A DNA stretch of 64,000 nt from Stylophora pistillata (Eukaryota). The notes beneath the pieces are model-generated. The model searched no databases. It saw nothing but the letters and a program-made list of their open reading frames with translations, and had not been told where the DNA came from. Position numbers and translations under genes: made by a program. Of the stretch, positions 24,701 to 64,000 are shown piece by piece. Location of the stretch: NCBI RefSeq assembly GCF_002571385.2, contig NW_019218203.1:1-64000 (forward strand), written 5' to 3'. The stretch's first letter is position 1, and each line of letters starts with the position of its first letter.

Positions 24701-27227
24701 TAATAATAATAACAATAATAATAATAAAGTATTTATATGGCGTTATTTTCCTCAAAGTTCAAAAGCGCTTAACAAGAGTGACACAATTGTAAAATTAGAA
24801 AAACGCTTTTTTAAAATGAGAAGTTTTAAGTTTGTATTTAAAAACGGACACTGAGGAGCAGTTCATGATTTCGCACGGCAAAGTGTACCAGAGTGTGGGG
24901 GCAGCTACAGAAAAAGATCTTGCCCCAAATGTCTTCAAACTGGGGGCTATTATGAACTTTGCGTTGGCTTAACAGCATAAATGATACATGTGCATGTTTA
25001 TATCAAAGAAACGACTTAGGACGCTAATCCAATATGATTTCTACTTTTGGCTTAGGTATCGCTGAAAAACAATTTCTTCCTTATTACCCATCTTCATCCG
25101 CAGTTTTTGATGTTCTGTGGCAACATATATTTCAGTATTTCCTGATTCTTGGACATAACCAAATGCACTTCTGTTGAGTCATTTCCAAAAATTAAAACAT
25201 GCACTAAAGTGGAGCTGCAAAGTAGTCCATGTCAGGTTGAAAATTACTTTTATTGATACAGTTTGATTTCCAGAGATTGTTTGCTTGAAAATTTAACATA
25301 TGTTCCGCAATTAAATCGATTCGGACAAAATTAATTCTTGCTCCTTATTCTTTATTGTGAAGTAGAAGTCTCCTTTGCGAATTAATTGCCAAAACCACAT
25401 TTAATGGCATGCATTTTAGTTTTAACAATGTCGATTGAAGCAAATTTTTACGCAATTCTGAACTTCATGACGAAATTTAAGTCCCCTGAAGTAAGAGAAA
25501 TTGAGTCCATTGAGTTTCCCTATAAGGCAGATTCAAAATTTATGCGTAGCCCAGTCTGATATCATATCAGACTGTTAAAAAATTAATCAGAGAAGTGAAA
25601 ATTATGCTGTACTAAGTGTCCAAAATGTTGCTTATAGATGATTCGAATTCAGCCAGGAAAGCAATTGGTCGTTCAATATGAATCCACGAGTGGAACAAAC
25701 TTCGAACTCCAAGTACATGACGGGAACACTACAAATGCCACAACAATTTCGTTTGTCAACCAACTGACAGGTGTCGTCCCACCATCTTTGAGCTCTGGTC
25801 ACGAACTATTCCTAAGATTTCGATACAGTGGTGGTGGTTCAGACGCAAAAGTCAGATTTATAATGACCAGCAGTCAAGGTAGGAAGAATAGCACTTTAGA
25901 AATCTATTTTGAAGGGTTATAAAGCAAAAATCCAGAGGAAGGTTCTGGTGCTCCAGATCTCCCCTGACTTCGTCAAACCCTGTGCATCAATTACTTCTTG
26001 TCTGACTCCCAAACGTTTTCAAAGACAGGACTGCGCATAGGCAACCGACTTGCTGATACATCATGCTTTAGATGAAACTCGCACTTGCGTGAAACACAAT
26101 TTAATCTCAGAGGTCTGTCAGGGTGTACCCGCGGATGGTTTGCCGGCCGTTGCTTCTTGCAAGGCAGATGCATTTACCACGTTCACGTAAACTTGTGTTC
26201 GTCTCTGCCTGAGTGATAAAATCTGCATAATGACGTATAGAGTGTAACGGAGAGTGACGGACGTGGAAGGGGGGGGTAAGGAGGAGGATGAAGGCTGGAT
26301 TGATAGAATTTAGCTAACAATTCTGTGCTTTCTTTCTTTTGGATACCCAACAAAAACGTCCTTCGTCAGCCCGGTAATCATCTCCAAGTTCCCCCCCCTG
26401 CAACACGCACTCATCAAATAGGTAACGTATGTTACATCTGCTAACTGACTCTCAGGCGTTTGTGACTCAAAAAGCGAAGACTACTATTACATCTTGGCGT
26501 AGCTAAACACAAGATAATTTTGGCTTTATCAACTGTGTCCTCTTCTTGTTTCACCAGAGTATATCTTTTTGAAATAAATGTATGTTACGCAATAGATGAC
26601 ATTCGAATCCCGTACAGGCCTGAATTGTTTCAGGTCTGATTTTCACTATTATATTGCTTAAATAGTGCTCTTTACTGCGAGGATCGTGCCCAAATACATA
26701 GATGACATTGGTGGAGGTGTACGTCAAGTGCTCAGTAATTTTAAGGATCCATATTTCCTCAACGTTACGAATGAAAAGACAAGGTTTACATCGTGTGCGA
26801 GTGCATTTAAAAAGCTCCAGGTTGGTCATTACTCTGATCAACTTCTGACCTAAAAGTTCCTTTTGTTTTGTCGCCTTTTGAAGACGACTGAGTGATCGTT
26901 TCTGAGAGCACCTTCGCGACGTAGAAAGGAAAGACAAGAACGCATCCAAACCAGTCGCTAAACACTTCAATCTGCCTACTCATTCTAAACAGCATATGGC
27001 AGTTTGTGGCTTTTCCCTACATCTAAGCAGTCCGAATTCGGAGAGCTGCAAAACTCTAGAACAAAAATTCTTCTTTCAAATCGGAAATCTTAATTCTACG
27101 ATATCAACATACGTTTTACATTCAACAAGTTTATACTTGTCTTTTTCGTTACCTTGTTCCCACCGATAGCGTTGCTCTATTTTCTGCGTATAAACACACA
27201 CACAACCTACTGTTCCTTCATTCGCTC

Positions 27228-27260
<33 letters not shown>

Positions 27261-30200
27261 GAAACTTATTACGGTGGCCAATTTACATTATCAACTTATT
27301 ATACTCCCTCGCCGATGGAGTACCACAGTCTCTTTAGAAACTTACACCCTTTATTCACTACTTTATTCTTTATTCACTGTTGTTTAGAGTTTTTATAATT
27401 TTTAATCTAATTTTAAATTTTTTAATTGTACTTTTTGTAGATTTTATATATTGGAGATATCTTTAATCCCCAGGACCCTATGGATACCAGCCAAGTTGGT
27501 GAATGGGCTAACCTGGTTAACTAAAGTCACAGTGGGCAGTGGTCCTATACTAGGAGTTTATATTCTCTCCCGTTTTCTGAATCTATTAGTTATGGTTATA
27601 TCTTTGTGTAGTCCAAATCTCTCAGTTATTGGTTCCCAAGTCAATTTATTTTTTAAACCACGATAGGATCTGAAAGGTCGGAAGGTCTCTGAATAACGGT
27701 ACTATCTCTTTTCAGATTGTTGCTCTTTGGTAATATTCAACTCTTCATTCAGCGATAACCAGGGGAGAGGTATATTTTTGAAAGATTTCGTAGGAAATTT
27801 GGACATTTCTGAGACAAAGGTCTTTAGAAATGGCATGGATGGCCTAATGATTGAACGGACCCATGGTAAAATAACAATGCTCGGCTCTCACTTTATTGAC
27901 AACAGTGCTAATGGTCTTGGATTCTTGGACAGCAGCTTTCTTTCATATATTCTTTGCCAGCTATTTTTCAAAGGAAACGGATATAATGGATTGAATGTCC
28001 AACGGGTGGCTTTCAAAGGTAAAATTTCCGATTCGGAGTTCACTGAAAATGGTTACAACGGACTTGTGATCGCTTCTGGAACTGGCGAAGTTGTAATGCA
28101 AAACGTCCTTGCGATTTTGAATAAACAAAATGGAGTAATGGCTTACGATGGTAAAATCGCCACTGAATTTAAATTTTGCAATTTTTCAAGAAACCAAAAA
28201 GATGGATGCTACATTGCCAACCAGGCGGGATCTCATCAATTGTACAACTGCTCGGCAAATTCAAATTCAAGATGTGGAATTAGTCTTTCAGATCCAATTT
28301 ATTACTCTTCGCCAAATTATCATTTCAAGGGATTTATTTTAAAGGACAGCACCATCCAAAACAATGCACTCTTTGGAATCAAGTTCAGCTTTGGGGAAAA
28401 AAACCCAAGGGAATATGGAGTCAATCCTAGTATTGTGATAAAGAGAAACTCCTTTGTTGGAAACAGCAGAGGAGGTATCGTTTTGTCGTCAAACTACCGC
28501 AGGTGGTATTGGAACGACCCAAGAAAAATTGATTTTGTTGTAAATAACAATCTTTTTGAACAGAACAAAGCTAACTCAATTTATGTTAACTGTTTCAGTT
28601 TTCTTGGTTCAAATTCTTTGATAGAATCAAACAAATTCGTAAACAATAGTGACGGAGTGGTGACGTTTTTGCACGATAACAATTGTAAGCCTGATCGCAA
28701 AGGTAACCCCATTATCGTGACAATCAACGGAAACACATTCACCAAAAATCGTGTTGATAATGTGATATATATTGACTACAACTTATACCCTGAGACACGC
28801 TCAGCTTCTATAGGAAACAACACTTTTGAAGATAACGAGCCTCCTACGAAAGAACTTTTTCCAAACTTTTTCCTTCGGCTGACAAGTCATGCAGTCATTG
28901 TTCTTAAGGAAGGCAATTTTACTGTACATGATAACATCTTTGAAAACCCCAGCTACACATTTCAGATCTCTTCATTGCTTCGTGATCATCATCGAGTTGT
29001 TGATGCAGAAATGAACTGGTGGGGAACCGCTGATGGATGCGAAATTATGGACAGAGTCTTTGATTTTCAACACAATGCCCATTTATCCCAATTTCAATTC
29101 TTCCCATATTACACCTCTTTGGACAAAAGTGCCGTGAGTACTTCAAGACCATACTGTTTCCTTAGAGGTTCCAGCATTGGTGGAAGCCTAGACAGACTGC
29201 TGACCTTGTCAAATGCTGACTCACCTTACGACGTCCGACAAGACGTTGTTATCCTGACCAACGGTACTTTGGTCATACCTAAAAATGTCACGTTAAGGTT
29301 TCCTCCCAGATCAGTGATGGTGGTAAAAGGAAAGCTCATTGTCAATGGGACTGATAATGAAAAAGTTAGATTTTCGACAAAGCCATACCAAGAGGAATTC
29401 CGTTTGGCTGGAGGTGCTGGTCCTTGGGAAGGAAGAGTGGATTTTCTGGTGAACAATACCTGGTCGCCAGTGTGCGTTTCTTACTACAGATCATTTACCT
29501 CAGAATCAAAAATTATTTGCCAGCAATTTAATCTCTACTATCAGACCTACTGGTTTCACTCTCCTACTGGACAAGGCTCTGGCTTTGTGCATAACGTCAT
29601 CTGCGACGAGAACATTGACAATGATATCATGAACTGCAGTGTTAACACTTGGAGTTATAGACCCTCTTGTACAGGTTATACTGTGCACGTGACTTGTCAA
29701 CAGTACAACTGGGCTGGGCTTCACCTAGCAATGACCAATCATCAAAGCTTGTTACGTTACGTGGAAATCTTAGATGCTGGGTTCGCCTATCGCAGCGACA
29801 TCCAAATCTCCGGTGCAGCTCTGACAATCGACCTCAACCATCATAACATAAGCAACATTTTCATTAATAACTCTTTGGGAATTGGTGTTAAAGTGGTATA
29901 CCAGAGCTTCATTCATTATGCGTCGTTGATACCACAATCTACAATATCATATACAAAGTCACACGGTGTTCTTTCATACTCTCCGTCCCTTGTTCTCACA
30001 GACATAAACATGACAAGAAACGATGGGAACGGTTTCATTTTCAAAGGTACAACAAGTTCATGGGATAGTACACGCACATTTACCGCCAAAATGGCCAGTC
30101 GAGACATGGATAAATATCTCTATATCTGCTCCCACAACAAAACATTTCTATCCGCCGAAAAGGTATTTTATTTCAGTCTAGAAGCACTGGAAGATAGCCT

Positions 30201-33200
30201 TCGGTTCAGATGTCAACACGTGCTGGAAACAGAGCCAGGGTATATAATACTTATTCAGGAGCTTTACACTTCAACAAATTTGGACGATTACCATATCTTC
30301 CTACACGTGTATAACGGAGATAATATGTCACTAGGGATCCCTTTTAAGTTGGGATCATCATCCTTGGAGAATCGACCTGTTTTCAACTCGGTGAATTCTT
30401 CTATTTTGTTTGATTTTTTCAAGCACTCTGGCTTTAGTGAAGATATGAACTTCTTGGTGTATACAGTGAAAGGTTTGTTATTGTTTGCAACGACTTTCTA
30501 TTCAATATTTTACCACGCTTGGCAGTAATGTCGAAATGTGATTGGCTAATATGTCGTTGTCGACAAGATTACAGACAACGCTGCTTGCGTCAAAGTGTCA
30601 CGCAATGTCTTCATTAGCTCTTAAACATGGACGAATCGGAAATTTTGGCGTAGACATTGTCGTAAAATACAAATCGACAGTGGTTTAGCGTGGTCTGTCA
30701 AAATTTGTTTCGGACTCTCTCGGCTCCGCAACCTGAGTCCACAAAATTTTGAACATTGTGAAGACGAATGTTGTTGTCGATAAGAATACAGACGACGCTA
30801 AACCACAGTCGATTTTCTAAATCTATACCCTCTGACATTGGACGAACCTAGATGATGAATTTCCTAGATGGGTTCGATCATTCATAAAGTACATTTTTGA
30901 TAGGTTATGGTATGTGAAGACTCAGCAATTCAACACATAAACGTTTTTGTTTCTTTGTTTCTTTTTATTTTGATTAAGAACTTAATTCTAAAAGAAGAAT
31001 GAGAAACAGTAAAAAGGGAAGGAAAGGATTCAAAGTGTCGGGGAGAATAGACAATTAGGAAGATGCAGTCGTCATTAATTTTAATTTTGCTTTTTTTTTA
31101 GCAGTTTAAATTTGTTGTGTTTATTTTAAACATTTTTAACAGGAAGTCAAAACGTTGTGTACGTCGGAGAAGAAATCAAAATAGCTCGAGCCAAGATAGC
31201 CAATAGCCTTCAAGGAGGTATTCTCATTGGAGGACGTGTGTTGAAGCACCTCTGCGTAAGTGAGACAGAAATCACTCATTCAGAATTCGGAATACAGTTG
31301 ACCCCGAGTGGTATCAATGCCGTTAAAATTGTTTCATCAAAGCTTCACCAAAACAACCAGGGAATTTTTATAGATTTGATCTCCTCTCAAGATGTTTTTA
31401 GCGTGCAAGACTGTGTTGTCAACGGATCACTATATCATGGCATACATATCAACGTACTTTATCAGTCAATTCGTCATGCACATCACATCCAGATTTTAAA
31501 CTCGAGTATTACAGAAAATCGTCAACGCGGCCTCTTTATCTCGGAACACTCATACGGGATGGATTTAAACATATCACTCATTGGCAACTTTTTCTCTTCG
31601 AACGTAAAAGGAGGCGTTTTTTACCATCAGTACTATTATTATTATTATTACCATCATTACAGAAATCCTTCCTCAGTAATAAAATCGAACCATTTTTTGC
31701 GTAACGAAGGATCCACCATTGAAATTCAATGTCGCAGCTACTACAGTAATCAAGTGTTCGCAATTGTTAGTAATTTATTCCAGGAGAATTTGGGCTTCTC
31801 TGTTATCTCCTTGACGACCTCTTACGGGAGAATAACTTTACTAATTCATCGGAATTTGTTCTTGGCGAATCGTATCCAGGATAATGCAGCGATTGTCATT
31901 TATAGGTACACAGGGCGAGGTACTTTTGACATTAGAAGCAACAACTTCACCCTGAATTCCGGACGTTGCCTATTTCTTGGAAGAACAGTACCTTATGTTC
32001 AACTTACTGTTACAAATAACCTGTTCCGTGAGAATTATTGCAAAAATAAAAGTGTTATAGAAATACTTCGCATGGACGAAAACAACATCATTGAGAGTAA
32101 TATCTTCATCAACAACAGGGCAAACAGTGTAGTTCTTCTTCAAGTGATGTATGATATCCATCTATCACTTGAGAGGAAAATGGTTGCCTTCAAGAACAAT
32201 ACCCTATTCGATAACGTTCCTTATTCTGAAACTCAGTCTCTAAACGAACGTGATTCTTGTGCGGTTGTTCTGTCTGGTATCCTAGGGCACAAAGAAACAG
32301 AGTTTTACTTCAACAGTTTTAATAATACTCGATACTTGATGGAACTTTGTGTTAAAGTACTGGCCACTTCCGAGTATGACGTAGTGAATTTGACATACAA
32401 TTGGTGGGGAACAGCGAATGAAAGCAAAGTGCGTGAAAGGATATGGGACTTTGATGACAATTATGACTTTGCTGTTGCTAATATATCGCCAGTTCTTTTG
32501 ATTAATAATGAACACGACTTAATTTCTTTCGAACAGCACAACTTAACACAAACGCGTAGTATTCTCTCAGGGCGACTGATAGAGTCTCTGACACTTAAAC
32601 CCTCGCAAAGCCCTTACTTCGTACCTTCAGACTTTATTGTCACGGCAAACGTTACCCTCACCATACAAGCTGGAGTTATCGTGAAAGTAAGCCCTGGGAA
32701 GAGAGTACTTGTCGCTGGAACATTACAGGCATTGGGAACGTTTGCCAAACCAGTGATATTTACAGTTAAGGAGCCTACAGAAGATAACATCAGGTCACAG
32801 TTTCCTTTACGTCTTGTGGATGGCGATTTTCCTTGGAAGGGGAGAGCAGAATTATTTTATAACAAATCGTGGAAGCCGATAACTGTTTCAAATATCTTAG
32901 CCATCAGAAACATTACAAGACTACTCTGCCATCAGCTGGGATATGGTCCAGGTGATGTTTCGAAAGGAAAGTCCCATGGTATTGGTCAGGATGGGAAAGG
33001 GTCGTGGATGGTAGAGATCAGCTGCTTTGGACACGAAACAGGGCTTCAAGAATGTTTATTCAACCTGGTAATGCCAAACGAAACCACTGCTTTACAAGTT
33101 GTAAAATGTGAGGGCTTACCTTGGGGAAATGTAAGATTTGTGCCACCCAGAGATAAGAACACCTCCAACTTGCAGTCCGTGTTAAATCACGTTCAGTTTT

Positions 33201-45405: not shown

Positions 45406-46114
45406 GTAAGTCAGGCTATCACGCACTATCCTGCATTGTTACGTATTACATGTTTGATGCAGCAGGCACAGTAAGGTGTCTGAATGAGAGAAGTGAATTT
45501 AGTTTTGTCAAATGAATTGATAATGTAAATTTGCCAGCGGTAAAGACTTTCTAAGGCTGACGTTCCAAGCGCTAGTTCTTTGTTAGAGCCAATGACAAAA
45601 GGATTACGGTCGAAACGTCACTGATACAAGCGTCTTATTTGTTGAGCACGAGTGAGCATTCTGAGTTCGCGATTTGTTCACCGAACGTCCACGTTTATTG
45701 TAGGGTTAGCGGAAGGGTACACGCAAATTTTTCTTTCGCCTTCCCCCTAACCTTTCCTTTCTTCTCTCCCAACAACCATCCCCTGGATACAAATTTCACT
45801 CTCTCCCAACCGTGCTCCAGTTAATATCCAAGATGTTGATTAATCCCCTCGCGCAGACATAAAACTCATAGGGTTGCCTTGCAGAAAACACGCGTCACAA
45901 ATCAATTTACATAAGAGGCCGGACATTCTTTATTGCCTTGGGGTAGGGGGAGAGGGGTAGAGAAATTCTGGTTGTGTCACTAACCATCCTGAAGAAAAAA
46001 TCTGCTGTTACATACCTAGGCTTTCAGTCAACAAAACGGGCACTATGATTGGTTGATTCGTGGTCACGAGCCACTGATTAAATTCAAATGTAACTCGGAA
46101 AGTTTCTTTGTGAA

Positions 46115-49100: not shown

Positions 49101-51631
49101 ACCTCCACTGCGTTCTAAAAACCGAGTTCATTGCCAATCGTTAACAGTAGGGAGGCAGAAATTCTTGAAGCAACTGTGAAGTTCAGTACAAAATGTTAGT
49201 CTAGATAGAAGCAGATATGTCACGAATTTAAGAAAGTACATGACATCTTTAAAAGACAGGTTTCGACATGAATTTTAGTCCCCTAGAGCTAGGGAAATTG
49301 AGTCAATTGAAATTCTCTGCACGAGAGCAGTTAAAAATGCATGACAGCCTTTAGTGGCATTCAATGTCGTTTGTTAAGCAATGGCAAATGAAAAATGAAA
49401 ATTTCTTATGCTTTTAAAGTTGTCGCGAACTGATAAAGTGAGCCATCTCGGTTTCCATGGACAAAGGCATCAGGCGTCATCTTGACATTTATAAGCTATT
49501 TTTAACTCTGCGTATTATTAACTAACAATGTTTCGTTTAGTAAATAGGCGTTGCTTTTGATGACAGATATATTTTAATTTCACAACTTGTGATTGACATT
49601 AATTCCGTACAATGATTAAAAAAGTGTTAGCTTCTCATATTTTAAACCAGTTTTCAGAAGAATCAGTAAGAGAGAGAAGACGGTTTTTATAATCTGTTCG
49701 CTTACCCGAATCTGCTAACCTGAAGTGAGAAACCTATTTTTACGACCCGCCACAGAAGTAAGTTTCCAATAACGTTTTTCTTGAGTTTTGCTACGAGATT
49801 AAGACTTAATTTGCGTTTTTCTGATTTGGAATAATAAATGTATTTCTCTCAGATCGAATAATTATTAAAGCTTGGATAAGATTATACGGTTTGTGGTGGT
49901 CGTTTGAGCTGACCAGTTCCGAGCAAGGAAACAAACAATGCAATGGAAATTACCGAAGGAGAAAATTACAACCTGAGGATTGGAGACATGGTTGACAAAA
50001 ATATTCGAATTTGATTTCGGACACGAAAACTGGAGATATTTCCCCGTGTCATGCACATATGGCGACTTATGTCACTTCTTAGAGCAAGTTCTCATAAATG
50101 TTAAATAACAACTAGATATTAAGAATGTTCAACACGACGACAATCCATGCGTATCACATTTGCTAATTAATGGGAAAACATCAAAACTCGGGCTGTTTGT
50201 TTGTGTGTACAGTCCAAAAAAATGTTGTTGTCAGTTAAACATTGCTGCGATTTTAAATCTTTTACGTCAACTAAGAATTGTAGATTATCAGTCTTGCGAA
50301 AGTGTAGACATTGGATCCAAAATTCCTGATCAAAAGCCCCAAAATTGCTTTCCCTGGGAGTCAAAATATGCAAATATACGCGGAACTTATGAGCCCTAAC
50401 CTCCGTGAGTACAAAAGAAAAGAGAAAAGTTTGCATTATTTGAGGAATTATGGCTTCAATCCAACCTAAATACACCATATTGCCAAAAACTCATATCTAT
50501 GACGCATTTGCTTCCCTTTTGTGATCGTTTCATGAGTTTTCTGCGAATTTTTAAGATCGTGTGTTCACAAGTTTATTTGCTCAACTCTTGGTTGTTTACA
50601 GTTAATGACAAACTTCACTTCCTGTGGCCACAAAAATGTAGATTATTCAAATTGTAAATGTGAGGTAAACCTTTTTTTTTTTTTTTTTCAAGATCATGTT
50701 TATCAGTTTCCTAGGGGAGGGGTTGGTCGCCTTTCCATTCAAATACTGGATAATAGTCTTAAAAACAGCCCGCTGATCCACCGTGGATTTTCCATTCATT
50801 ATTTTATACTTTCAAACCATTTGTTGTTTGTCTTCTACGGATACTCTTCGTGTTACTGTTTAAAAAAAGAAAAAAATAATAAAAAGGCACTCTTGTGTAA
50901 CCTCACTCGATTCTTCTTTGCCGAATATATTATAAAGCTGGAGCATTTTCCAAGAATGAATGTTGTCTACTTTGTTAGAGCTTGGTACCAGAATAATCCG
51001 AGTTGAGAATCTTATCGATCAAAAATTGAAGCTTTTGTAGTGATATTGAAACCCATGGCTTTCTCCTGCAAACTAACATGAATTTAGGAAGGTGATGACA
51101 TCATCCCCCTCCTTCTCGCCTGGGAGAATGGACTGGTTGTGTCTTAGAGGGTTTGTTGATGAACCTGACCATTAAATGAACCTTTTGCTAATAAATGGGG
51201 TAAGTTTCTAATGGAACTGCGGTGCTGCGTCGGTGGGGATAACAAGTTTACATTACCAAAGTTGACATTACGAATTTACTTTTGCTAATAATTTTCAGAT
51301 GAAAATGTTTTAGACAAATTGATCCCCGTCTTTTATGTATGCAAGTAGCTTGAAGACTTACCACACAGCAAACAATAGCATTCTGTACAATGATTTCCAA
51401 TTTGTTTTTGCAGTAGTAGCCATATGTAGTCTTTGCCATCCTATGCTTCATTTTCCATGTTGTTTTGTCGAACTCGAGTTAATAATTTTCTGCGTTGTTA
51501 TGTGTTACGAGAATTTTTCATAATGAAATTATACAGTAGACTTTCCCTTAAATCTGGGCCAATCAAAACTCACAGAATTTTCCGCCTGCATTACCTTTAA
51601 GGCATAGAAACCTTGGAGTTATCGACCAGAC
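46115..51631 (+). repeat. Segmental duplication of the upstream region of copy A (lacking its TE insertions)
   Basis: Collinear with 14311-18214 and 21124-23102; extra pieces match ~11545-11970 and ~5785-6160. Confidence 0.85.
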
Positions 51632-54600
51632 ATGGCAGTTTATTCAACTGCTGTGATGTGGGAAATTATCTTTCTGTTGTTTGTAAAGTGCATCACACCA
51701 ACTTGTGCTAGTGGCACAAATATCGGTGGTGAGATAGTCGTCGACACAAACCTAACACTGAATGGAACCCCCTATGTGGTGACTCAGGACCTCATTGTAG
51801 CCGAGAACGCAACTCTCAGCATTCAACCAGGAGTACACTTGGACTTTGATGTTGCAGTTTCCTTGAAAGTTAAAGGTTCTGTGGTAGCAAAAGGGGATCT
51901 CCTTCAACGAATTGTTTTTACCATGAACCCGACAAATAATTCAGTAAACAGTTCCTATACCACACCGTTGAACTTACACTATAACGAACGAATTCGGCTC
52001 CGTGATGGGAGCAGTCCTCAAGATGGGCGCTTGGAGATTTTCGTGAATGGACAATGGGGAACTGTATGCGATGATAGGTGGGACATCAGCGATACTCAGG
52101 TAAATTTAATGGACATTGCTCTATCTTCTTATTGAAGAGGACATGGAAATGGAATTAAGATCATCTTCTATTTTGCCATAGGCAAATTATAATCGCAAAA
52201 AAATTTTATGGCACTGAATGGAACTTCAGTAAACAGAATTTAACCTGGTACTAGCTCACAAACAGTAAAGGCCACTAGTTCGCACAAAGAAAAAAAATGA
52301 GCCATTTTCACCGGCTTGCAGTCTCACTTTCAAACGTTCGACAACACATGAAAGAGAGCTATCCCTACCAGAACCGTTCAAATAGAAACACTGATAAATT
52401 AATTCGCTTGCATACGATTTATGGTCCGCCGTGCATCACCTTTAAACGTTCGTCTCTTTTTTACGAGCATAGGTCGCCTGCAGGCATATGGGTTTCAAAG
52501 AGGCCAAAAGATTCTACACGTTCGGTTGGGGAGATGGGCCTATCTGGTTAGATGATGTCGACTGTCATGGTCACGAAATGAGTTTGCTTCATTGCCGACA
52601 TCGAGGAATTGGATCTCATAATTGTGGTAGGTATTCGATATACAACCAAAAAACTAAAACGATCTCATGATAATCTATTGAAGTAAGAATCCCTGTCAAA
52701 ATATTTACTCACTGAATAGGTCATGGTGAGGATGTTGGAATTGAGTGCCAAATACAGGAATTGAGTGTCAAATATCCTCTTTGGAACGGGATTGAGTTCA
52801 TTGGTTCAAAGAAGTTCCGAGTGATAAAGTACGTGGACATCTCTCAAGCTCATAAAGCAATAAGCGGTAATGGATTTCTCCCACATCTCGATTATGTGAC
52901 TGTCAAAAGATCTCTGTATGGAGTGATGACCATAAATGGGAGTTATCCGCTGGCCATAAGTAATAGCAGTTTTAAAGATAATTTATTCGCTGCTATCAAT
53001 CTGAAGAGTCACTCTGGGAATGTTACAGTAGAGAACACCGTGATGGAAAATGCAACGTTAGGGTTTCAATACTCCGGAATTGCCTCAGATTCAGTAGACG
53101 TTGATTGTTCATTTCAAGGTAAGGATATACATAAATCAGTCTAGATAAAATTAGGAATTGGACGACATAAATTCCAAGTCAACAAACCACATACGAGTTA
53201 TCATGAACTTTGCGTTAGCTAAAAAAACTTCTTTGATAAGTTCTTATCTTAAAAACATGGTCAAGGACTGCAGATCCAGTCTGTTTCCGTCTTTTGGCTC
53301 AAATCTCAACCAAAAGTACGTGTGCTATAACCCATATGCAGAAAACATTAAGATAAGGCAGCCCCAGATTTGAGGAGCAGAGATATTCTTCCATGGTAAA
53401 TTTAATTAAAAGTGATTCCAATGTATAACAAAATACCCTTGTGTTCTATAACACCCAGTAATCAAAACGTAAATTAAGATGGGACAACTAGGAAGTCTTT
53501 GTCGGGTTAGGTTAATAGAGATTGTTTCGCTTGAAAATTCTGCATATGTTCAGCGATGAATTCCTTTCTGAGAAAATCAATAATTGCTTCTTTCTTATTT
53601 TTTGTGAAGCACAACTCTCTTTTGCGATTTGAAAACCGCGTCCAATGGCAGTTTTAACTTTGTCGATTGAAGCAATTTCTTGACGCAATTATTAAGTTCA
53701 TTGCGGCGAAATATAGGTACCTGAAGCAAAAGGAATTGAGTCAATTTAATTTTCGACAACTGTAAACAATCCATTGAAGAGGTGGAAATTATACTGTGCT
53801 AAGTTTTCAAAATGTTGGTTAAGGATGATTAGAACTAAACCAGGACAGAAATTGATGGTTTATTATGAATCCATTGATGGATCGAACTTTGAACTCTAAG
53901 TACGTGATGGAAACACAACAAATAAGGTTTTGATAGAATGATGGTGATTCAGATGCCAAAGAAATATGATTTTAATTAAGGGTTACAAAGGGGAAATCCA
54001 AAGGGATGGGCTAGTGATCGATCCAAACCCCCCTCTTTCCCGAACCTGTAGAACCTATGGATATTCACTTCTTGTCTGACAATGACAGTTTTTCAATGCA
54101 AGGGTCCCATATTACTATTCAACCGGCTGATGCTTCTGAGATGATATTCGCGTGAGTGTGAAACACTCTAAAACAAATACCCAGAGGTGTGCAAAGGGAT
54201 ACCCTCTGATGTCTTGCCGTTACTTGCTCTTGCAGAGCCGAAAAATTCACGGGCGTTAAAATAAATAAACTTAAGCTCGTCTCTACGTGCTGAAACAGGT
54301 CTGCCAAATGACGTATAGAGTGTAACGGAGAGTAATGGGAGAGGGGAGGGGGGTGAGGGTGAAGGCGTTGGCTGATAGAAAAGTTAGCCAGTTGATATTT
54401 GTGTGCTTCCCCTGTAAAAAATTTCCTGGATCAGTCTCGGTATCATCACGTGGTGTCCCCCTACTCTACCAAAGCAGGACTGTGTTTCCTAGTACATTCG
54501 TAATGTAACATCTGTTGATTTTCTCACAGGAATTGGGTGTTTCTGACCAAGAAGCAAAATCATCTATTACATTTTTTTCGTGTTATTGTTACTCTCTGTT

Positions 54601-57164
54601 TGCGGCTCCGGTTGATGAATATCGCCCAAGCTTTTGGTGACATCTTATATTAGGGACCTTTAGCACTGACGACGAGAACGTGGACGACGACGGATATGAC
54701 NGATTTAGGCCTGGGACGGGACCGTCGTCCACGGCGGGAAACATAAACACTTTAGCACATCGGTTACGTGGACGAGTCCTTTACTGCTAATTTGAAAATG
54801 CAAAAATTATCCACTAAAACAATTCAACTTTTTTTCAGTGTTGTAATCAACGTCAAGTGATTCAGAGCTAAGTTTACATACACAGTCGATCCGAGCGGTT
54901 CGGATATTTTTCAAAGCCCAGAAATCTTCTTAAAAATGCCAGCTGGCATAAATTACAAAACTCTAACGAAATATCCGCGATTTATATTTATAAAAGCATT
55001 TATAAGGCTACGTACATACCCTACAGCACTTTTATCATCATCCGCCATTGCTTTCTCCGCTATAAACTGTAAAGCTCAATCTGCAACTCGAAGGAAATAA
55101 AGTTTTTTCCATCACGGTACGATCAAATTACTTTCGGCACTGCTTTTATTCCCCAACCGACTCTTTAGATTTTAAGAAATCCCTAAGATAGGTAAGTAGA
55201 AATTAGAAAACAAATAAAACATACTCACGTTCTCGTCAAGACGGCAAATGGCGGCAAATGGCGTTTTGAACGAGATGTAGAAGACGACTCGTGCTCGATT
55301 AAGCATGCGTGGTAGCATTGAAATTCGTTTTCCCAACTTCCGGTCGGTCACATTCACGTTCTCGTCGTCACTGTTAAAGGTCCCTACTAGGTGCTAAGCG
55401 ACTAGCAAGATACACAATTGTGTATAACTGTCGGGTTGAAAACTGTGCCTGTGGTGTTTATATTCAAATGTTGTGGCTTTTGTACGTTTTCATAATTCTA
55501 ATAATTAATATTATGGTTTTTACTCTGTTTTGGGCAAATCTTAAGCTGCATTCATTTACAAATCTCACAGTTATTGGCTTTTAAGTTGATACATTTTTTC
55601 AAAAGCACGTCAAGGATCTGAAAAGTTGAAAGGTCACTGAATCAGAGTCGTTTCTATTTTCAGATTGTTGCTCCCTGGTAGTACTCAATTGTTCATTTAG
55701 TAATAACAGGGTAAGTGGCATATCTTTAAAAGATTTCGCAGGAAAGGTAGACATTTTTAGGACCATCTTCTCTAAAAATGGAATGGATGGTATGACAGTT
55801 GAACGGACCTCTGGTAAAATAACGGTGGTTGGCTCTCAGTTTATTAATAACAGCTTCAATGGTCTTCGCTTCTCGAACAGTAGCTTTCTGCCGTGTAACG
55901 GGTACAATGGATCGAATATCCAGCGGATGGCTTTCAAAGGTAAAATTTCTGATTCAGAGTTCATTGAAAATGGTTACAACGGACTTGAGTTCACTAATGG
56001 CGCTGGCGAAGTTGTTATACAAAACATTACTGCAATTTTAAATAATCAAAGTGGTGTAAGGGCTTACGGTGGTAGGATCTCCACTGAATTTAAATTTTGC
56101 GAGTTTTCAAGAAACCAAGAAGATGGATGCTACATTGCCAACCAGGCAGGATCTCACCAATTTTACAACTGCTCGGCAAGTTCAAATTTGAGATTTGGAA
56201 TGAGCGTATCAGATCCAAGTTATTACTCTTCACCAAGTTATTACTCTTCACCAAGTTATTATTTCGAGAAATTTATTTTAAAGGATAGCACCATCCAAAA
56301 CAATGCACTTTTCGGAATCAAATTAACCTTTGGGGGAAAAATTCGGAACGAGTATGAAGACAATTCTACAATGGTGATTAACAGGAATTCATTTGTTGGA
56401 AACAAGGGAGGAGGCATCGTTTTGTCGCCCAACTCGCACAGGTGGTATTGGTGGTGGCATTGGAACTACCCAAGAACGATTAATTTTGTTGTGAAGAATA
56501 ATCTTTTTGAACAAAACAAAGTTAACTCAATTTATGTTAACTGTTTCGGTTTTCTTGGTTCAAATTCGTCGTTAGAATCAAACACATTCCTAAACAATAG
56601 TGACGGTGTGGTGACGTTCTTACCTAATAACTATTGTGAACCTGATCGCAAAGGTAACCCCATCATCATGACAATCGACAGAAATACATTCACCAAAAAT
56701 CGTGCTGAAAATTTGATATATATCGACTTCAAACTATACCCTGAGACACGCTCAGCCTCTATAAGAAATAATACGTTTAATGACAACGCGCCTCCTTCGA
56801 AAGAACATTTTCCAAACTTTTTCCGTCGGCTAACAAGTCGTGCAGTGATTGTTCTTAAGGAAGGAAATTTTACGGTACAAGATAACATCTTTGAAAACCC
56901 CGACTTCACATTTCAGATCTCTTCATTGCTTCATGATCACCATCGAATTGTTGATACAGAAATGAACTGGTGGGGAACCGCTGATGGATGCAAAATTATG
57001 GACAGAGTGTTTGATTTTCAACACAATTCCCAGTTATCCCAATTTCGATTCTTCCCATATTACACCTCCTCGGACAAAAGTGCCGTGACTACTTCAAGAC
57101 CATACTGTTTCCTTAGAGGTTCCAGCATCGGTGGAAGCCTAGACAGTCTGCTGACCTTGTCAAA
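51632..57164 (+). CDS. Bark-like copy B, partial (exons 51632-52099, 52473-52626, 52720-53118, 55664-57164; exon 4 decayed)
   Basis: Homologous to copy A exons 1, 2, 3 and 5; the frame stays open if exon 4 is skipped; ends at a single N (57165). Confidence 0.75.
53825..53965 (+). pseudogene. Decayed exon 4 (CUB-like) of copy B
   Basis: [16 protein letters not shown]...FEL* with internal deletions and no donor site. Confidence 0.75.
54652..55385. mobile_element. MITE (PIF/Harbinger-like GGG..CCC termini) in copy B only
   Basis: TIRs AGGGACCTTTAGCACTGACGACGAGAACGTG and CACGTTCTCGTCGTCACTGTTAAAGGTCCCT; absent at ~60388 in copy C. Confidence 0.8.
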
Positions 57165-57876
57165 NCCGAATATATTATAAAGCTGGAGCATTTTCCAAGA
57201 ATGAATGTTGTCTACTTTGTTAGGGCTTGGTACCAGAATAATCCGAGTTGAGAATCTTATCGATCAAAAATTGAAGCTTTTGTAGTGATATTGAAACCCA
57301 TGGCTTTCTCCTGCAAACTAGTATGAATTTAGGAAGGTGATGACATCATCCCCATCCTTCTCGCCTGGGAGAATGGACTAGTTGTGTCTTAGAGGGTTTG
57401 TGGATGGACCTGTCCATTAAATGAACCTTTTGCTAATAAAAGGGGTAAGTTTCTAAGGGAACTGCGGTGCTGCGTCGGTGGGGATAACAAGTTTACATTA
57501 CCAAAGTTGACATTACGAATTTACTTTTGCTAATAATTTTCAGATGAAAATGTTTTAGACAAATTGATCCCCGTCTTTTATGTATGCAAGTAGCTTGAAG
57601 ACTTACCACACAGCAAACAATAGCATTCTGTACAATGATTTCCAATTTGTTTTTGCAGTAGTAGCCATATGTAGTCTTTGCCATCCTATGCTTCATTTTC
57701 CATGTTGTTTTGTCGAACTCGAGTTAATAATTTTCTGCGCTGTTATGTGTTACGAGAATTTTTCATAATGAAATTATACAGCAGACTTTCCCTTAAATCT
57801 GGGCCAATCAAAACTCACAGAATTTTCCGCCTGCATTACCTTTAAGGCATAGAAACCTTGGAGTTATCGACCAGAC

Positions 57877-60800
57877 ATGGCAGTTTATTCAACTGCTGTG
57901 ATGTGGGAAATTATCTTTCTGTTGTTTGTAAAGTGTATCACACTAACTTGTGCCAGTGGCACAAATATCGGTGGTGAGATAGTCGTCGACACAAACCTAA
58001 CACTGAATGGAACCCCCTATGTGGTGACTCAGGACCTCATTGTAGCCGAGAACGCTACTCTCAGCATTCAACCAGGAGTACAGTTGCACTTTGATGTTGC
58101 AGTTTCCTTGAAAGTTAAAGGTTCTCTGGTAGCAAAAGGGGATGTCCTTCAACGAATTGTTTTTACCATGAACCCGACAAATAATTCAGTAAACAGTTCC
58201 TATACCACACCGTTGAACTTACCCTATAACGAACGAATTCGGCTCCGTGATGGGAGCAGTCATCAAGATGGGCGATTGGAGATTTTCATGAATGGACAAT
58301 GGGGAACTGTATGCGATGATAGGTGGGACATCAGCGATACTCAGGTAAATTTAATGGACATTGCTCTATCTTCTTATTGAAGAGGACATGGAAATGGAAT
58401 TAAGATCATCTTCTATTTTGCCAAAGGCAAATTATAATCGCTAAAATATTTTATGGCACTGAATGGAACTTCAGTAAACAGAATTTAACCTGGTACTAGC
58501 TCAAAAACAGTAAAGGCCACTAGTTCGCAAAAAGAAAAAAAATGAGCCATTTTCTGCGGCTTGCAGTCTCACTTTCAAACGTTCGACAACACATGAAAGA
58601 GAGCTATCCCTACCAGAACCGTTCAAATAGAAACACTGATAAATTAATTCTCTTGCATACGATTTATGGTCCGCCGTGCATCACCTTTAAACGCTCGTCT
58701 CTTTTTTACGATCATAGGTCGCCTGCAGGCATGTGGGTTTCAAAGAGGCCAAAAGATTCTACACGTTCGGTGGGGGAGATGGGCCTATCTGGTTAGATGA
58801 TGTCGACTGTTATGGTCGTGAGATGAGTTTGCTTCATTGCCGACATCGAGGAATTGGATCTCATAATTGTGGTAGGTATTCGATATACAACCAAAAAACT
58901 AAAACGATCTCATGATAATCTATTGAAGTAAGAATCACTGTCAAAATATTTACTCACTGAATAGGTCATGGTGAGGATGTTGGAATTGAGTGCCAAATAC
59001 AGGAATTGAGTGCCAAATATCCTCTTTGGAACGGGATTGAGTTCATTGGTTCAAAGAAGTTCCGAGTGATAAAGTACGTGGACATCTCTCAAGCTCGTAA
59101 AGCAATAAGCGGTGATGGATTTCTCCCACATCTCGATCATGTGATTGTCAAAAGATCTCTGTATGGGGTGATGACCATAAATGGGAGTTATCCGCTGACC
59201 ATAAGTAATAGCAGTATTAAAGATAATTTTTTCGCTGCTATCTATCTGGAGAGTCACTCTGGGAATGTTACAATAAAGAACACCGCGATAGAAAATACAA
59301 CGTTCGGGTTTCAGTACTCTGGAATTACCTTTGATTCAGTGGATGTTTGTTCATTTCGAGGTAAGGATATACAGAAATCGGTCTAGATAAAATTAGGAAT
59401 TGGTCGACATAAGTTCGAAGTCAACAAACCATATACGAGTTATCATGAACTTTTGCATTGGCTAAAAAAGACATCTTTGATAAGTTCTTGTCTTGAAACA
59501 TGGTCAAGGACAGTAAATCTGGTCTGTTCTCTTCTTTTGGCTCAAATCTCTACCGAAAGTTTACGCGTGTTAGAACCCATCTCCAGAAAACATTAAAGAT
59601 AACGCAACCCCAGATTTGGGGAGCTGAGATTTCATTGTTCCATGGTAAATTTAATTTAATTTCTGATTCCAATGTGTAGCAAAATACACTTGTGTTCTAT
59701 TACACCCAGCAATCAGAATATAAATTAACGTGGGACAACTAGGTAGTCTATGTCAGGTTAGGTTAACACAGATTTTTTCGCTTCAAAGTTCTACATATGT
59801 TCAGCGAAGCACTCGTTTTGGACAAAATCAATACTAGCTTCTTTGTCCTTTTTTTGTAAAGCAGAACTCTCTTTTGAGGTTTGAAAACCGCGTCCAATGG
59901 CAGTTTTAACATTGTAAATTAAAGCAATTCAGTTTGAGACAATTCTGATTAAGTTCATTGCGGCGAAATATTGGTACCCTAAAGTAAGTGGAATTGAGTC
60001 AATTCAATTTCCTTACGACAACTGTAAAACAATCCAGTAGAGAATTGGAAGCTATGCTATGCTAAGTTTTCGAAATGTTGCTTAAAGATAGTTAGAACTT
60101 ACCCAGGACAGAAATTTATGGTTTATTATGAAACCATTGGTGGTTCGAACTTTGAACTTCAAGTACGTGATGGAAACACAACAAAAGCCCCAAAAATTTC
60201 GTTTGTGAACCAACGGACAGGTGTTGTCCCACCATCTTTGAACTCTGGTCACGGACTCTTCTCACAGGACTTGAGTGTTTCTCACCAAAAAGCGAAATCT
60301 ACTACTACATTTTGTTCGTGTTATTTTTACTCTTTGTTTGCGGCTCCGGTTGATGAATATCGCCGAATCTTTTGGTGATATGTTGTATAAGGTGCTAAGG
60401 GACTTGCAAGAAACTTTGTGTATAACTGTCGAGTTTAAAACTGTGCCTATGATGTTTATATTCAAATGTTGTGGTTTTTCAGGTTTTCATATGTCTAATA
60501 ATTATGGTTTTCACTCTGATTCGGGCAAATTTTAAGCTGCACCCATTTAAAAATCTCACAGTTATTGGTTTTTGAGTTAATAAATTTTTTTCCAAAAGTA
60601 CGTCAAGGATTTTAAAGGTTGAAAGGTAACTGTATCACGGCCCTTTCTCTTTTCAGATTGTTGCTCCCTGGTAGTGCTCAATTGTTCATTGAGTGATAAC
60701 AGGATAAATGCCATATCTTTGAAAGATTTCGTAGGAAAGGTAGAAATTTCTAAGACCATCTTCTCTGGAAATGGAATGGATGGTTTGACGGTTGAACGGA

Positions 60801-63800
60801 TCTATGGTAGAATAACGGTGGTTGGCTCTCATTTTATTAACAACAACGCCAGCGGTCTTCGCTTCTGGGACAGTAGCTTTCTGCCGTGTAAAAATCGGAA
60901 CGAGTATGAAGTCAATTCTACTATGGTGGTAAACAGAAACTCCTTTGTTGGAAACAAAGGAGGAGGTATCGTTTTGTCGCCAAATTCGCACAGGTGGTAT
61001 TGGTGGTGGCGATGGAACTACCCAAGAACAATTGATTTTGTTGTGAAGAATAATCTTTTTGAACAAAACAAAGTTAACTCAATTTATGTTAACTGTTTCG
61101 GTTTTCTTGGTTCAAATTCGTCGTTAGAATCAAACACATTCTTAAACAATAGTGACGGTGTGGTGACGTTCTTACCTAATAACTATTGCGAACCTGATCG
61201 CAAAGGTAACCCTGTTATCGTGACAATCGACAGAAATACATTCACCAAAAATCGTGCTGAAAATCTGATATATATCGACTTCAAAATATACCCTGAGCCA
61301 CGCTCAGCCTCTATAAGAAATAATACGTTTAATGACAACGAGCCTCCTACGAAAGAACATTTTCCAAACTTTTTCCGTCGGCTAACAAGTCGTGCAGTGA
61401 TTGTTCTTAAGGAAGGAAATTTTACAGTACAAGAGAACATCTTTGAAAACCCCGACTTCACATTTCAGATTTCTTCATTGCTTCGGGATCACCATCGAAT
61501 TGTTGATGCAGAAATGAACTGGTGGGGAACCGCTGATGGATGCAAAATTATGGACAGAGTGTTTGATTTTCAACACAATTCCCAGTTATCCCAATTTCGA
61601 TTCTTCCCATATTACACCTCATAGGCCAAAAGTCCCGTGACTACTTCAAGACCATACTGTTTCCTTAGAGGTTCCAGCATCGGTGGAAGCCTAGACAGTC
61701 TGCTGACCTTGTCAAACGCTGACTCACCTTACGACGTCCGACAAGACGTTGTTATCCTGACCAACGGTACTTTGCTCATACCTAAAAATGTCACGTTAAG
61801 GTTTTCTCCCAGGTCAGTGATGGTGGTGAAAGGAACGCTCATTGTCAATGGGACTGAAAATGAAAAAGTTAGATTTTCGACAAAGCCATACCAAGAGGAA
61901 TTCCGTTTGGCTGGAGGCGCTGGTCCTTGGGAGGGCAGAGTGGAATTTCTGGTAGATAACACCTGGTCGCCAGTGTGCGTTTCTTACAACAGATCGTTTA
62001 TCTCAGAATCAAAAGTTATTTGCCAGAAACTCAACCTCTATTATCAGACTTATTGGCTTCACACTCCTACTGAACAAGGCACTGGCTTTGTGCATAACGT
62101 CATCTGCGATGAGAACATTGACAATGATATCGTCAATTGCAGCGCTAACACTTGGAGTTATAGACCTACCTGTACAGGTTATACTGTACACGTGACTTGT
62201 CAACAGTACAACTGGGCTGGGCTTCACCTAGCAATGACCAGTCATCAAAGCAGCTTACTTTACCTGGAAATCTTAGATGCTGGGTTCGCATATCGCAGTG
62301 ACATCCAAATTTCCGGTGCAGCTCTGACAATCGACCTTAATCATCATAACATAACTAACGTTTTAATGAATAACTCTTTTGGAATTGGTGTTCAAGTGGT
62401 ATACCAGACATTACTTCATTACAAGTCGTTGATGCCACAATCTACAATATCATATACAAAGTCACACGGTGTTCTCTCATACTCTCCGTCCCTCATTCTC
62501 ACAGACATAAATATCACAAGAAACGATGGGAATGGTTTCTTTTTCAAAAGCGCAACACGTTCTTTGGATACAATACACACGTTTACAACTGAAATGGCCA
62601 GTCGAGACATAAAAAAAACTCTTTACATCTGCTCCCGCAACAAAACGTTTGTACCCCCTAAAAAAGTATTTTATTTTGGTCTAGAAACACTGGAACATAG
62701 CCTTCAGTTCAGATGTCAACATGTCGTGGAAACAGAGCCAGGGTATATAATAGTTATTCAGCAGCTTTACAGGTCATCATATCTAAACGATTACGATATG
62801 TTCCTGCACGTGTATAACGGCGTAAATATGTCACTTGGGACGCCATTTAGGATGGGATCATCATCCGCGGAGAATCGACTTGTTTTCACCTCTGTGAATT
62901 CTTCGATTTTTTTTTATTTTTTCAAGCGCTCTGGCATCAGTGAAGTCATCAACTTCTTGGTGTATACAGTGAAAGGTTTGTTTCTTTTTAGAACCAGCTC
63001 CTATTTCCATGATATATTAACTACGATTGGCAGTGATGTCGTCATGTGACTGGCCAATTTATCGTTGTCGACAAGAGTACAGACAACGCTACTCGCGTTA
63101 GCGTGTCATGGAATGTATTTGTCAGCTCTTAAACATAAATGACTCGGAAATTCTGACGTCGTTAATGCAGTAAAATACAAATAAACAGTGGTTGAGCGGG
63201 GTCTGTCAAAAACTTTTGCGGTTTCACTCGGCTGCGCCTCGTGAGACCAACAACATTTTGACCGTTGTGATGACAGTACAGACCACGCTAAACCACATCT
63301 AACATCGGTTTGTTTTTTGCCAAGTCATTTCTGTTTGAATGAAAATACTATCTTTATTGTTTGAAGCTGGGGCAGATCCTTGAAAAAAAGTTAACAAAGG
63401 AACCATAGGTGATAGGTTCTGATGTTTATTGGGCAAGCCTCGTCAATTCAACCCAGAGAGGTTTTCTTTCTTGCTTTCTTTTCATTTTGATTAAGGAATC
63501 AATCATGAAACAAATAAGAGGAACAATTAAACTCAAAGTATCGGAGAGAATACACAATCAGGATGAAGCAGTAGTAATTAATATTAATTTTGCTGTTTTT
63601 AGGAGACTAAAACAGTTGTAATTTTTTATCGTTTTCCGCAGAAAGTCAAACCTTTATGTACTTCGGAGGAGAAATCAAAATAGCTCGAGCTAACATAGCC
63701 AATAGCCTTCAGTCAGGTATTCTGATTGAAGTGATCTCTCAGAATGTTACCGTGCGAGACTGTGTGGTTACCGGATCATTATATCATGGCATATATATCT

Positions 63801-64000
63801 CCACACATTATAGATATTAGTGGTCAGCCCATGGCATTGTTAGGATTTCAAACTCGAGTATTACAGCAAATCATCAACGCGGCCTCTATATCCTGGACTA
63901 CTCATTCGGGAATGACTTAAACATTTTACTGACTGGTAACTTGATCTCTTCAAACATCAGAGGAGGAGTTTTGTATTACGCCTCTTATTGGTATTACTCT
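57877..64000 (+). pseudogene. Bark-like copy C (exons 57877-58344, 58718-58871, 58965-59360, 60657-62975, 63642 to end), two nonsense codons
   Basis: Homologous to copies A and B; in-frame TAG at 61622-61624 and 63818-63820; the exon 4 remnant (~60088-60260) has lost its donor. Confidence 0.8.

What the first reader, a model, noticed from the sequence alone, without database searches (positions are those of the whole stretch)
52720..55664. Clean removal of the first CUB-like module in copies B and C by a phase-shifting deletion plus exon loss
Seen: in A, exon 3 ends in phase 0 and the 241-nt exon 4 converts to phase 1. In B and C the 3' ~80 nt of exon 3 (the CUB start, FDD...IDCA) is deleted, so exon 3 (399 and 396 nt) now ends in phase 1, exactly what exon 5 needs. 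Exon 4 has then decayed differently in each copy: stop plus deletions in B (~53825-53965), lost donor in C (~60260). Inference: the B/C lineage made an in-frame exon 3 to exon 5 product with an asymmetric, CUB1-less triple repeat, so it was functional after the change.
Basis: partly seen in the sequence, partly recalled or inferred. Interest (0 to 1): 0.7.

Follow-up and report, generated by a model that had tools for sequence, protein, structure and literature searches.

The report
Re-phased exon skip removes CUB module
In two duplicated copies of a coral cell-surface gene, an 80-base deletion shifts the reading frame so that skipping the next exon gives an in-frame, spliced transcript without one CUB-like module; this shortened form likely kept working after the change, although one assembled copy has since broken.

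Summary
Observation confirmed to the base. The window holds three tandem copies (A, B, C) of a stony-coral 'bark beetle-like' gene (SRCR / beta-helix / CUB-like triple repeat). B and C share an 80-nt deletion at the end of exon 3 that keeps the donor but moves it from phase 0 to phase 1. Exon 4 (241 nt) has decayed in both. Exactly 107 codons, nearly the whole first CUB-like module, are removed in frame. The other 10 of 12 exon-3 copies in the genome lack this truncation. A polyA RNA contig carries the predicted joint 53118>55664 (GT..AG; 1 of 3 RNA runs laid). Retained exons show omega 0.58 along the B/C lineage (below 1, p=0.0006) and no frameshifts, so the lineage was likely functional after the loss. 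The direct exon-4 versus retained-exon rate test is not significant (p=0.27), and constraint since the B/C split is weak (0.69). RNA contigs of two runs lack one of C's stops, so an intact CUB1-less gene likely exists. A neat variant of post-duplication domain loss; function untested.

The parts
24120..24589 (+). Copy A exon 3 (end of SRCR1, beta-helix, start of CUB-like module 1), ends phase 0
24506..24585 (+). The 80 nt of A exon 3 that are deleted in B and C
   Evidence: alignment
25638..25878 (+). Copy A exon 4 (241 nt, phase 0 to 1), body of CUB-like module 1
27716..30472 (+). Copy A exon 5 (beta-helix, SRCR2, CUB-like module 2)
51632..52099 (+). Copy B exon 1 (hydrophobic N-terminus, start of SRCR1)
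   Evidence: joint 52099>52473
52473..52626 (+). Copy B exon 2
   Evidence: joint 52626>52720
52720..53118 (+). Copy B shortened exon 3 (399 nt), ends phase 1
   Evidence: joint 53118>55664
53825..53960 (+). Copy B exon-4 remnant: acceptor AG lost, TAA at 53897, 77- and 48-nt deletions, donor deleted
   Evidence: no RNA depth
54651..55386 (.). High-copy element with terminal inverted repeats inserted in B's fused intron, absent from C
55664..57164 (+). Copy B exon 5, open to the assembly break
57165..57165 (.). Single N joining B exon 5 to a copy of B's upstream sequence; likely an assembly break
   Evidence: contigs of X8 and X4 run on from 57164 into the sequence at 61717
57877..58871 (+). 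Copy C exons 1 (57877-58344) and 2 (58718-58871)
58965..59360 (+). Copy C shortened exon 3 (396 nt), ends phase 1
60088..60262 (+). Copy C exon-4 remnant: AAG acceptor, 58 open codons, 3' end and donor deleted
60657..62975 (+). Copy C exon 5: 441 nt shorter than B in frame, TAG at 61622-61624
63642..64000 (+). Copy C exon 6 start (continues to C419:66196): in-frame deletion of about 147 nt, TAG at 63818; two more stops beyond the window

Best explanation
An 80-nt deletion in exon 3 of the common ancestor of copies B and C moved the exon-3 donor from phase 0 to phase 1, so that exon 3 splices in frame to exon 5 and the first CUB-like module (107 residues) drops out, and this shortened cell-surface protein likely stayed functional while the unused exon 4 decayed. 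Steps. (1) Shown: one shared deletion, derived, since the sister copy D and nine other paralogues lack it. (2) Shown by translation: after the deletion, including an exon 4 of D's or A's type gives a stop within 3 or 15 codons, so skipping is the only productive splice. (3) Inferred: selection then favoured loss of the exon-4 splice sites; both copies share a T>A change at acceptor position -3, and each later lost the donor by a different deletion. (4) Shown: the 3>5 joint is spliced in polyA RNA. (5) Inferred: the module is a CUB-fold insert between beta-helix rungs, so removing it would leave a continuous helix with three SRCR and two CUB-like modules and one unpaired cysteine. (6) Inferred: the assembled C has since become a pseudogene, while B-like haplotypes likely still encode a full-length protein whose 3' half is missing from this assembly.
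For: Breakpoints and phases. Polarity: tree ((B,C)100,D)99 with A and E outside; D, A and E keep both parts; 10 of 12 exon-3 matches in the genome are not truncated like B and C (one of them runs into an N gap); 3 of 3 Oculina proteins keep the module; 27 of 28 short exon-3 relatives from the 50%-cluster library reach the module start. Splicing: run X8 contig of 1245 nt with joints 52626>52720 and 53118>55664, GT..AG, 255 letters on the short side, no depth over 53163-54611; it differs from B by 10 and 12 letters plus in-frame gaps of 18 and (next contig) 9 nt. Selection: retained exons, B/C stem plus tips, omega 0.58 vs background 0.52 (p=0.60) and vs 1 (p=0.0006); stem alone 0.46. Indels B vs C: 13 of 18 not a multiple of 3 in 1099 non-coding nt, 0 of 2 in 591 coding nt (p=0.004; 0.03 if coding-type DNA is half as indel-prone). 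B has no stop in 840 codons where 2.7-3.7 are expected if neutral (p=0.07-0.02). The stop at C419:64181 is absent from the only contig covering it in each of RNA runs X8 and X9, and both forms occur in run X4; the X8 contigs are not copy A (17 vs 48 differences over 260 nt) and follow from a contig that carries C's exon-6 deletion.
Against: The junction is seen in one contig of one run; raw-read runs X21 and X24 (about 2% and 6% read) had mean exon depth below 1 and show no joint. Exon 4 vs retained exons: omega 0.95 vs 0.69, p=0.27; on the stem 0.75 vs 0.30, p=0.13. B and C tips: 0.69, above background (p=0.016) and not below 1 (p=0.075); 0.90 in the diverged block. The deletion's place on the stem is unknown, so some of the stem constraint may predate it. 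The copies are mosaic (B vs C 97-98% at the ends, 84-90% in the middle; D's 3' end is almost A's), which breaks the single-tree assumption. No contig links the junction to exon 6; the letters at C's other three stops were not listed. Paralogue F appears to use an AAG acceptor, so the -3 change need not be harmful. No model of the spliced B protein was made; only 2 of 36 alignments to unrelated beta-helix proteins cross the junction.
Confidence: 0.7

Rival explanations
1. The deletion killed the gene: B/C is a transcribed pseudogene lineage, the phase match is luck (one in three deletions would give it), and the spliced joint is only the default outcome once exon 4 lost its splice sites.
For: Tip omega 0.69-0.90, not significantly below 1; four stops in C; many in-frame deletions (27, about 147, 441 nt); low expression in the raw-read runs; exon 4 not significantly faster than retained exons.
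Against: No frameshift among the coding indels, against 13 in adjacent introns; B open for 840 codons; RNA contigs with only in-frame gaps and no new stop in the 24 and 40 listed differences; the stop at C419:64181 absent from RNA contigs of two runs; whole-lineage omega below 1.
Confidence: 0.2
2. The order was reversed or buffered: exon 4 was first weakened or skipped as a minor isoform, and the 80-nt deletion came second as the compensating change while paralogues A and D covered the function.
For: Exon 4 already shows a raised omega on the B/C stem (0.75 vs 0.48 background), and the -3 acceptor change is shared by B and C.
Against: Both changes map to the same branch, so order cannot be read; C still has an AG acceptor and 58 open codons, and the donor deletions differ between B and C, so hard loss of exon 4 came after the split.
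Confidence: 0.07
3. B and C are two alleles of one locus placed in tandem by the assembler; the CUB loss is then a single-gene event with a working allele and a null allele. This changes copy number, not the mechanism, and its confidence is separate from the ones above.
For: Single N at 57165 with 97-99% identical flanks; contigs reaching 57164 continue into the sequence at 61717 in X8 and X4, and no listed contig bridges the N; the same contig has an 877-nt 100% duplicate beside another gap.
Against: B and C differ by 13% in introns of the middle block; in run X4 two exon-6 types lie side by side at depths of about 91 and 117, similar to C's intron 5 (103-121), which fits two loci, though the tool warns that contig depth is no copy number.
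Confidence: 0.35

Closest known systems
Drosophila Bark beetle / Anakonda, and coral proteins automatically named 'protein bark beetle-like' (P0003, Oculina patagonica)
   Same: Large extracellular protein built of three repeats; three SRCR stretches and beta-helix by Pfam; CUB-like modules. P0003 aligns along all of copy A at about 47-57% identity and keeps module 1.
   Different: Here an expanded family (12 exon-3 matches) with a MAM domain after the repeats. A cytoplasmic PDZ-binding end and tricellular localisation, described for Anakonda (PMC5509417, passages), are not shown. B/C lack module 1.
Exon or domain loss in a duplicate gene, e.g. repeated deletion of exon 6 in Drd3 (PMC12198306, abstract and outline seen)
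   Same: A paralogue loses a module-coding exon after duplication while the sister gene keeps it.
   Different: Here the lost exon is asymmetric (phase 0 to 1) and could only go because an exonic deletion re-phased the upstream donor; the exon decayed in place rather than being excised.
Compensatory frameshift pairs (general concept, recalled; PMC2194788 seen in a search listing only)
   Same: Two frame-changing events (-80 and -241 nt) sum to a multiple of three.
   Different: The second event is a splicing change, and no sequence is read in a new frame: the two losses are adjacent and together match one structural module.

Membership tests
CUB-like domain (lost module 1) | About 110-residue all-beta sandwich with CUB-type fold | tested here: met
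   Exon-4 model all beta, pLDDT 75. Atlas feature search with D residues 336-447: best named clusters are CUB, scores 0.85-0.89, lead level. Sister module 2 (model pLDDT 58): the 18 best rows by VIA-align are proteins known (recalled) or titled as CUB-bearing, e.g. C1s CUB2-CCP1 Z 8.4, rmsd 3.3, 105 aligned. Modules 1 and 2 align in register (hhalign E 0.0076, probability 5%). Support is indirect.
CUB-like domain (lost module 1) | Match to the Pfam CUB profile, or a direct fold match of module 1 itself | tested here: inconclusive
   No Pfam CUB hit in A exon 4, P0001, P0002 or P0003; the exon-4-only model, which lacks the first strands, matches generic jelly rolls, best Z 7.7.
Bark beetle / Anakonda | Triple-repeat ectodomain with SRCR and CUB modules | tested here: met
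   Three SRCR stretches in P0002 (a database model of copy A) and P0003; three repeats align. B/C keep two of three CUB-like modules by inference; B's 3' half is not assembled.
Bark beetle / Anakonda | C-type lectin domain, single transmembrane segment and C-terminal PDZ-binding motif | tested here: inconclusive
   Lectin-like and hydrophobic ORF pieces lie downstream of A and C (labels from recall), but they were not shown to be exons of these genes, and the candidate tails are very short.
Bark beetle / Anakonda | Orthology to the fly gene and localisation at tricellular septate junctions | not testable with these tools
   No fly sequence was fetched; searches for cnidarian bark or tricellular papers found 0.
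Pseudogene (assembled copy C) | Disabling mutations in the coding sequence | tested here: met
   4 in-frame stops, 0 frameshifts in exons 1-3, 5, 6; the form with the stop at C419:64181 is also present in run X4.
Pseudogene (copy B and B-like RNA) | Disabling mutations in the coding sequence | tested here: inconclusive
   None in the 840 assembled codons or in the listed RNA differences, but the 3' two-thirds is unassembled and 80 and 219 difference rows were not shown.

The most novel reading that the evidence does not exclude
One small exonic deletion acted as a phase switch that made a skip of an asymmetric exon the only productive splice and so founded a new, still active paralogue: a full-length, CUB1-less triple-repeat surface protein of Stylophora that segregates as mosaic, fast-changing haplotypes (working and null) like a recognition receptor, giving a natural test of whether bark-type proteins need three equal repeats.
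Probability: 0.25. Interest if true: 0.65.

Novelty: new variant of a known kind. Interest (0 to 1): 0.4.

Why it matters
Phase-asymmetric exons are usually treated as hard to lose. This locus shows a complete, traceable route around that, with the intact sister copy, two differently decayed remnants and the spliced product all available. For the bark/Anakonda-type family, where a model ties function to three equivalent repeats (PMC5509417, PMC11698045, passages), a naturally asymmetric expressed member would be a useful probe, but only if the coral proteins do a comparable job, which is untested. Practically, the assembly and the automatic gene models at this locus are unreliable.

Tried and rejected
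Raw-read RNA runs X21 and X24 were too shallow at the sampled share to show or exclude the joint; X17 covered exon 6 only patchily and not the stop sites listed. No contig bridging the N at 57165 was listed, but 126 pieces and 9 loose ends were hidden, so this is not evidence of absence. Sequence search of exon 4 against solved structures gave only spurious leucine-rich-repeat stretches; Foldseek on the exon-4 model gave nothing at E<=0.001. Three protein searches returned 5 distinct proteins, none CUB1-less; these searches are insensitive for long proteins, so absence in other corals is not shown. P0045's 68% coverage is a fused gene model, not a CUB loss. The idea that X8's exon-6 contigs are copy A was rejected; copy D as assembled is A-like there (6 of 217 differences to A, 17 to C), but a mis-assembled D cannot be excluded. 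Microhomology at the 80-nt deletion: none at the observed ends. Earlier findings of this scan: none by place or sequence. Literature: 6 searches found no paper on this locus or on coral bark-like genes; most subscription papers, including the original Anakonda paper, are not in the library, and no supplements were read.
Full report
What the locus is. The window is the first 64 kb of contig C419 of a 398-Mb genome. It holds three tandem copies, A, B and C, of a large multi-exon gene. The exons match Pfam SRCR and Beta_helix. Database proteins identical to copy A's exons (P0002) and to a copy on contig C288 (P0001, here 'D') are labelled Stylophora pistillata, and a relative from Oculina patagonica is named 'protein bark beetle-like'. 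The genome has 12 matches to exon 3, including E further along C419 and F on C142.

The observation. It holds to the base. A's exon 3 (24120-24589) ends in phase 0 and exon 4 (25638-25878, 241 nt) ends in phase 1. B and C lack the 80 nt that correspond to A 24506-24585, with identical breakpoints, and keep the last four exon bases and the GT donor. Their exon 3 (399 and 396 nt) ends in phase 1. Joined to exon 5, B is open for all 840 assembled codons. The loss is 321 nt, 107 codons. B's exon-4 remnant has lost the acceptor AG, has a TAA at 53897, and has 77- and 48-nt deletions, the second across the donor. C's remnant keeps an AAG acceptor and 58 open codons and then jumps into old intron 4 at about 60260.

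The loss is derived and happened once. A tree of the retained coding DNA gives ((B,C)100,D)99 with A and E outside. D, A and E keep the exon-3 tail and exon 4. Of 12 exon-3 matches, only B and C stop at the truncated position. Three Oculina proteins keep the module, and 27 of 28 short relatives from the 50%-cluster library reach the module start; the other ends early.

What was lost. Pfam does not recognise the module. An Atlas feature search of the intact module in D returns CUB clusters at 0.85-0.89, which is lead level. The exon-4 part alone folds as an all-beta sandwich but matches only generic jelly rolls. The equivalent module of repeat 2 lies within one exon; its model (pLDDT 58) has C1s CUB2-CCP1, Kremen, spermadhesin, neuropilin, TSG-6 CUB and MASP among its best matches (Z 7-8.7). 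Modules 1 and 2 align in register, including two cysteines (hhalign E 0.0076, probability 5%). 'CUB-like' is therefore fair, on indirect evidence. The deletion leaves the first cysteine and removes its likely partner. Beta-helix matches lie on both sides, so a continuous helix after removal is plausible but not modelled.

RNA test. Of 24 runs listed six were laid. On B (51300-57500), polyA run X8 has a 1245-nt contig with joints 52626>52720 and 53118>55664, both GT..AG, with 255 letters on the short side of the second; depth is zero over 53163-54611, including the exon-4 remnant. The contig differs from B by 10 letters in exon 3 and 12 in exon 5; A and D differ from B by far more. Gaps in this and the next contig are 18 and 9 nt, in frame, and none of the 24 listed coding differences makes a stop; 80 rows were not shown. 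The next contig runs past 57164 into the sequence that the assembly places at 61717. Raw-read runs X21 and X24, read at about 2% and 6%, had exon depth below 1 and show no joint. So the junction is seen in 1 of 3 RNA runs laid, one contig. C's own junction was not tested.

Selection test (MG94-type model written here). Over 840 retained codons the B/C lineage, stem plus tips, has omega 0.58: equal to the A/D background 0.52 (p=0.60) and below 1 (p=0.0006). The stem alone is 0.46. The tips are 0.69, above background (p=0.016) and not significantly below 1 (p=0.075); in the most diverged block they are 0.90. Exon 4 on the lineage is 0.95 against 0.69 for retained exons of the same block (p=0.27) and 0.47 for exon 4 in A and D (p=0.08). 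Indels are clearer: between B and C, 13 of 18 indels in 1099 aligned non-coding bases are not multiples of three, against 0 of 2 in 591 coding bases (p=0.004, or 0.03 if coding-type DNA is half as indel-prone). The first 99 nt of the exon-4 remnant also have no small indel, which tempers this. B has no stop where 2.7-3.7 are expected if neutral (p=0.07-0.02). The copies are mosaic, so all tree-based values are approximate.

The assembled C has four in-frame stops (61622, 63818, C419:64181, 65849) and large in-frame deletions, but no frameshift. B ends at a single N at 57165, after which the sequence repeats B's upstream region at 97-99%. Laid on C419:62900-66000 at 90% likeness, X8 shows the exon 5 to 6 joint on a contig that carries C's exon-6 deletion with 2 differences in 150 nt. 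At the stop at 64181, the only covering contig in X8 and in X9 has T>A, while X4 holds both forms (about 91 of 208 depth with the change). These contigs are not A (17 differences to C over 260 nt, where A has 48), and the bin depths show that both X8 variants follow from the deletion-bearing contig. None of the 40 listed differences creates a stop; 219 rows were hidden, and the letters at the other stops were not listed. No contig links the CUB1-less joint to exon 6. The likely reading is that C as assembled is a null copy and that B-like haplotypes continue into an exon 6 without at least that stop. Whether B and C are two loci or two alleles stays open.

Mechanism. After the deletion, including an exon 4 of D's or A's type stops translation within 3 or 15 codons, so the skip is the only productive splice. 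Both copies share a T>A change at acceptor position -3, and each later lost the donor independently. I infer deletion first, then selection for skipping, with intact paralogues as a buffer. The order on the stem cannot be read, and F appears to use an AAG acceptor. Odds: joint spliced, about 0.95; lineage functional for a time after the change, about 0.75; an intact member today, about 0.6.

Comparison. The proteins are built like Drosophila Bark beetle/Anakonda, a transmembrane tricellular-junction protein with a tripartite ectodomain and a PDZ-binding end (PMC5509417 and PMC11698045, passages read; the original paper was not read). Membership is not established: the coral family is expanded, has a MAM domain, and its C-terminus and localisation are untested. 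Exon loss in a paralogue is known (Drd3 exon 6, PMC12198306, abstract and outline). Six searches found nothing on this locus.

Verdict. A real, RNA-supported case of in-frame domain loss through a re-phasing deletion, likely functional at least for a time: a new variant of a known kind, interest 0.4.

Noticed in passing
window 18900-20846 (-): Open 648-aa ORF that looks like a piggyBac-type transposase (label from recall), inserted upstream of copy A.
   Followed up: no
G000:C288:402366-412766 (L020, L021): Copy D is mosaic: its 5' half groups with B/C, but from about codon 1150 on and downstream it is 95-100% identical to A; gene conversion, a hybrid gene or a mis-join.
   Followed up: partly
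window 52921-56400 vs 59166-60960: B and C are 84-90% identical in the middle block but 96-99% at both ends; RNA contigs mix B, C and ancestral letters, which suggests frequent recombination or conversion.
   Followed up: partly
window 23103-38736: The database model of copy A (P0002) adds two intronic pieces after exon 4 and skips part of exon 6, unlike the open six-exon frame found here.
   Followed up: partly
window 54651-55386: High-copy element with about 30-nt terminal inverted repeats in B only; depth about 3000-5000 in run X4, and related copies occur in RNA runs.
   Followed up: partly
window 42788-43800 and G000:C419:72565-76250: Cysteine-rich three-finger-like ORF pieces (label from recall), a Ser/Thr-rich stretch and a hydrophobic segment follow A once and C in two copies; possibly the last exons of these genes.
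   Followed up: partly
G000:C142 (L022-L024): Paralogue F has the start of exon 5 twice, about 1.45 kb apart.
   Followed up: no
G000:C419:122929-125344 (L019): An 877-nt stretch is repeated at 100% identity on both sides of an N gap, a sign of false duplication at gaps in this contig.
   Followed up: no
window 478-1767 and 45192-45512: ORF pieces resembling a VWA7/hemicentin-type protein (label from recall) at the window start and between A and B.
   Followed up: no
window 2042-3840, 7905-8435, 41514-42283: Fragments resembling non-LTR reverse transcriptases and a GIY-YIG endonuclease of Penelope-type elements (labels from recall).
   Followed up: no
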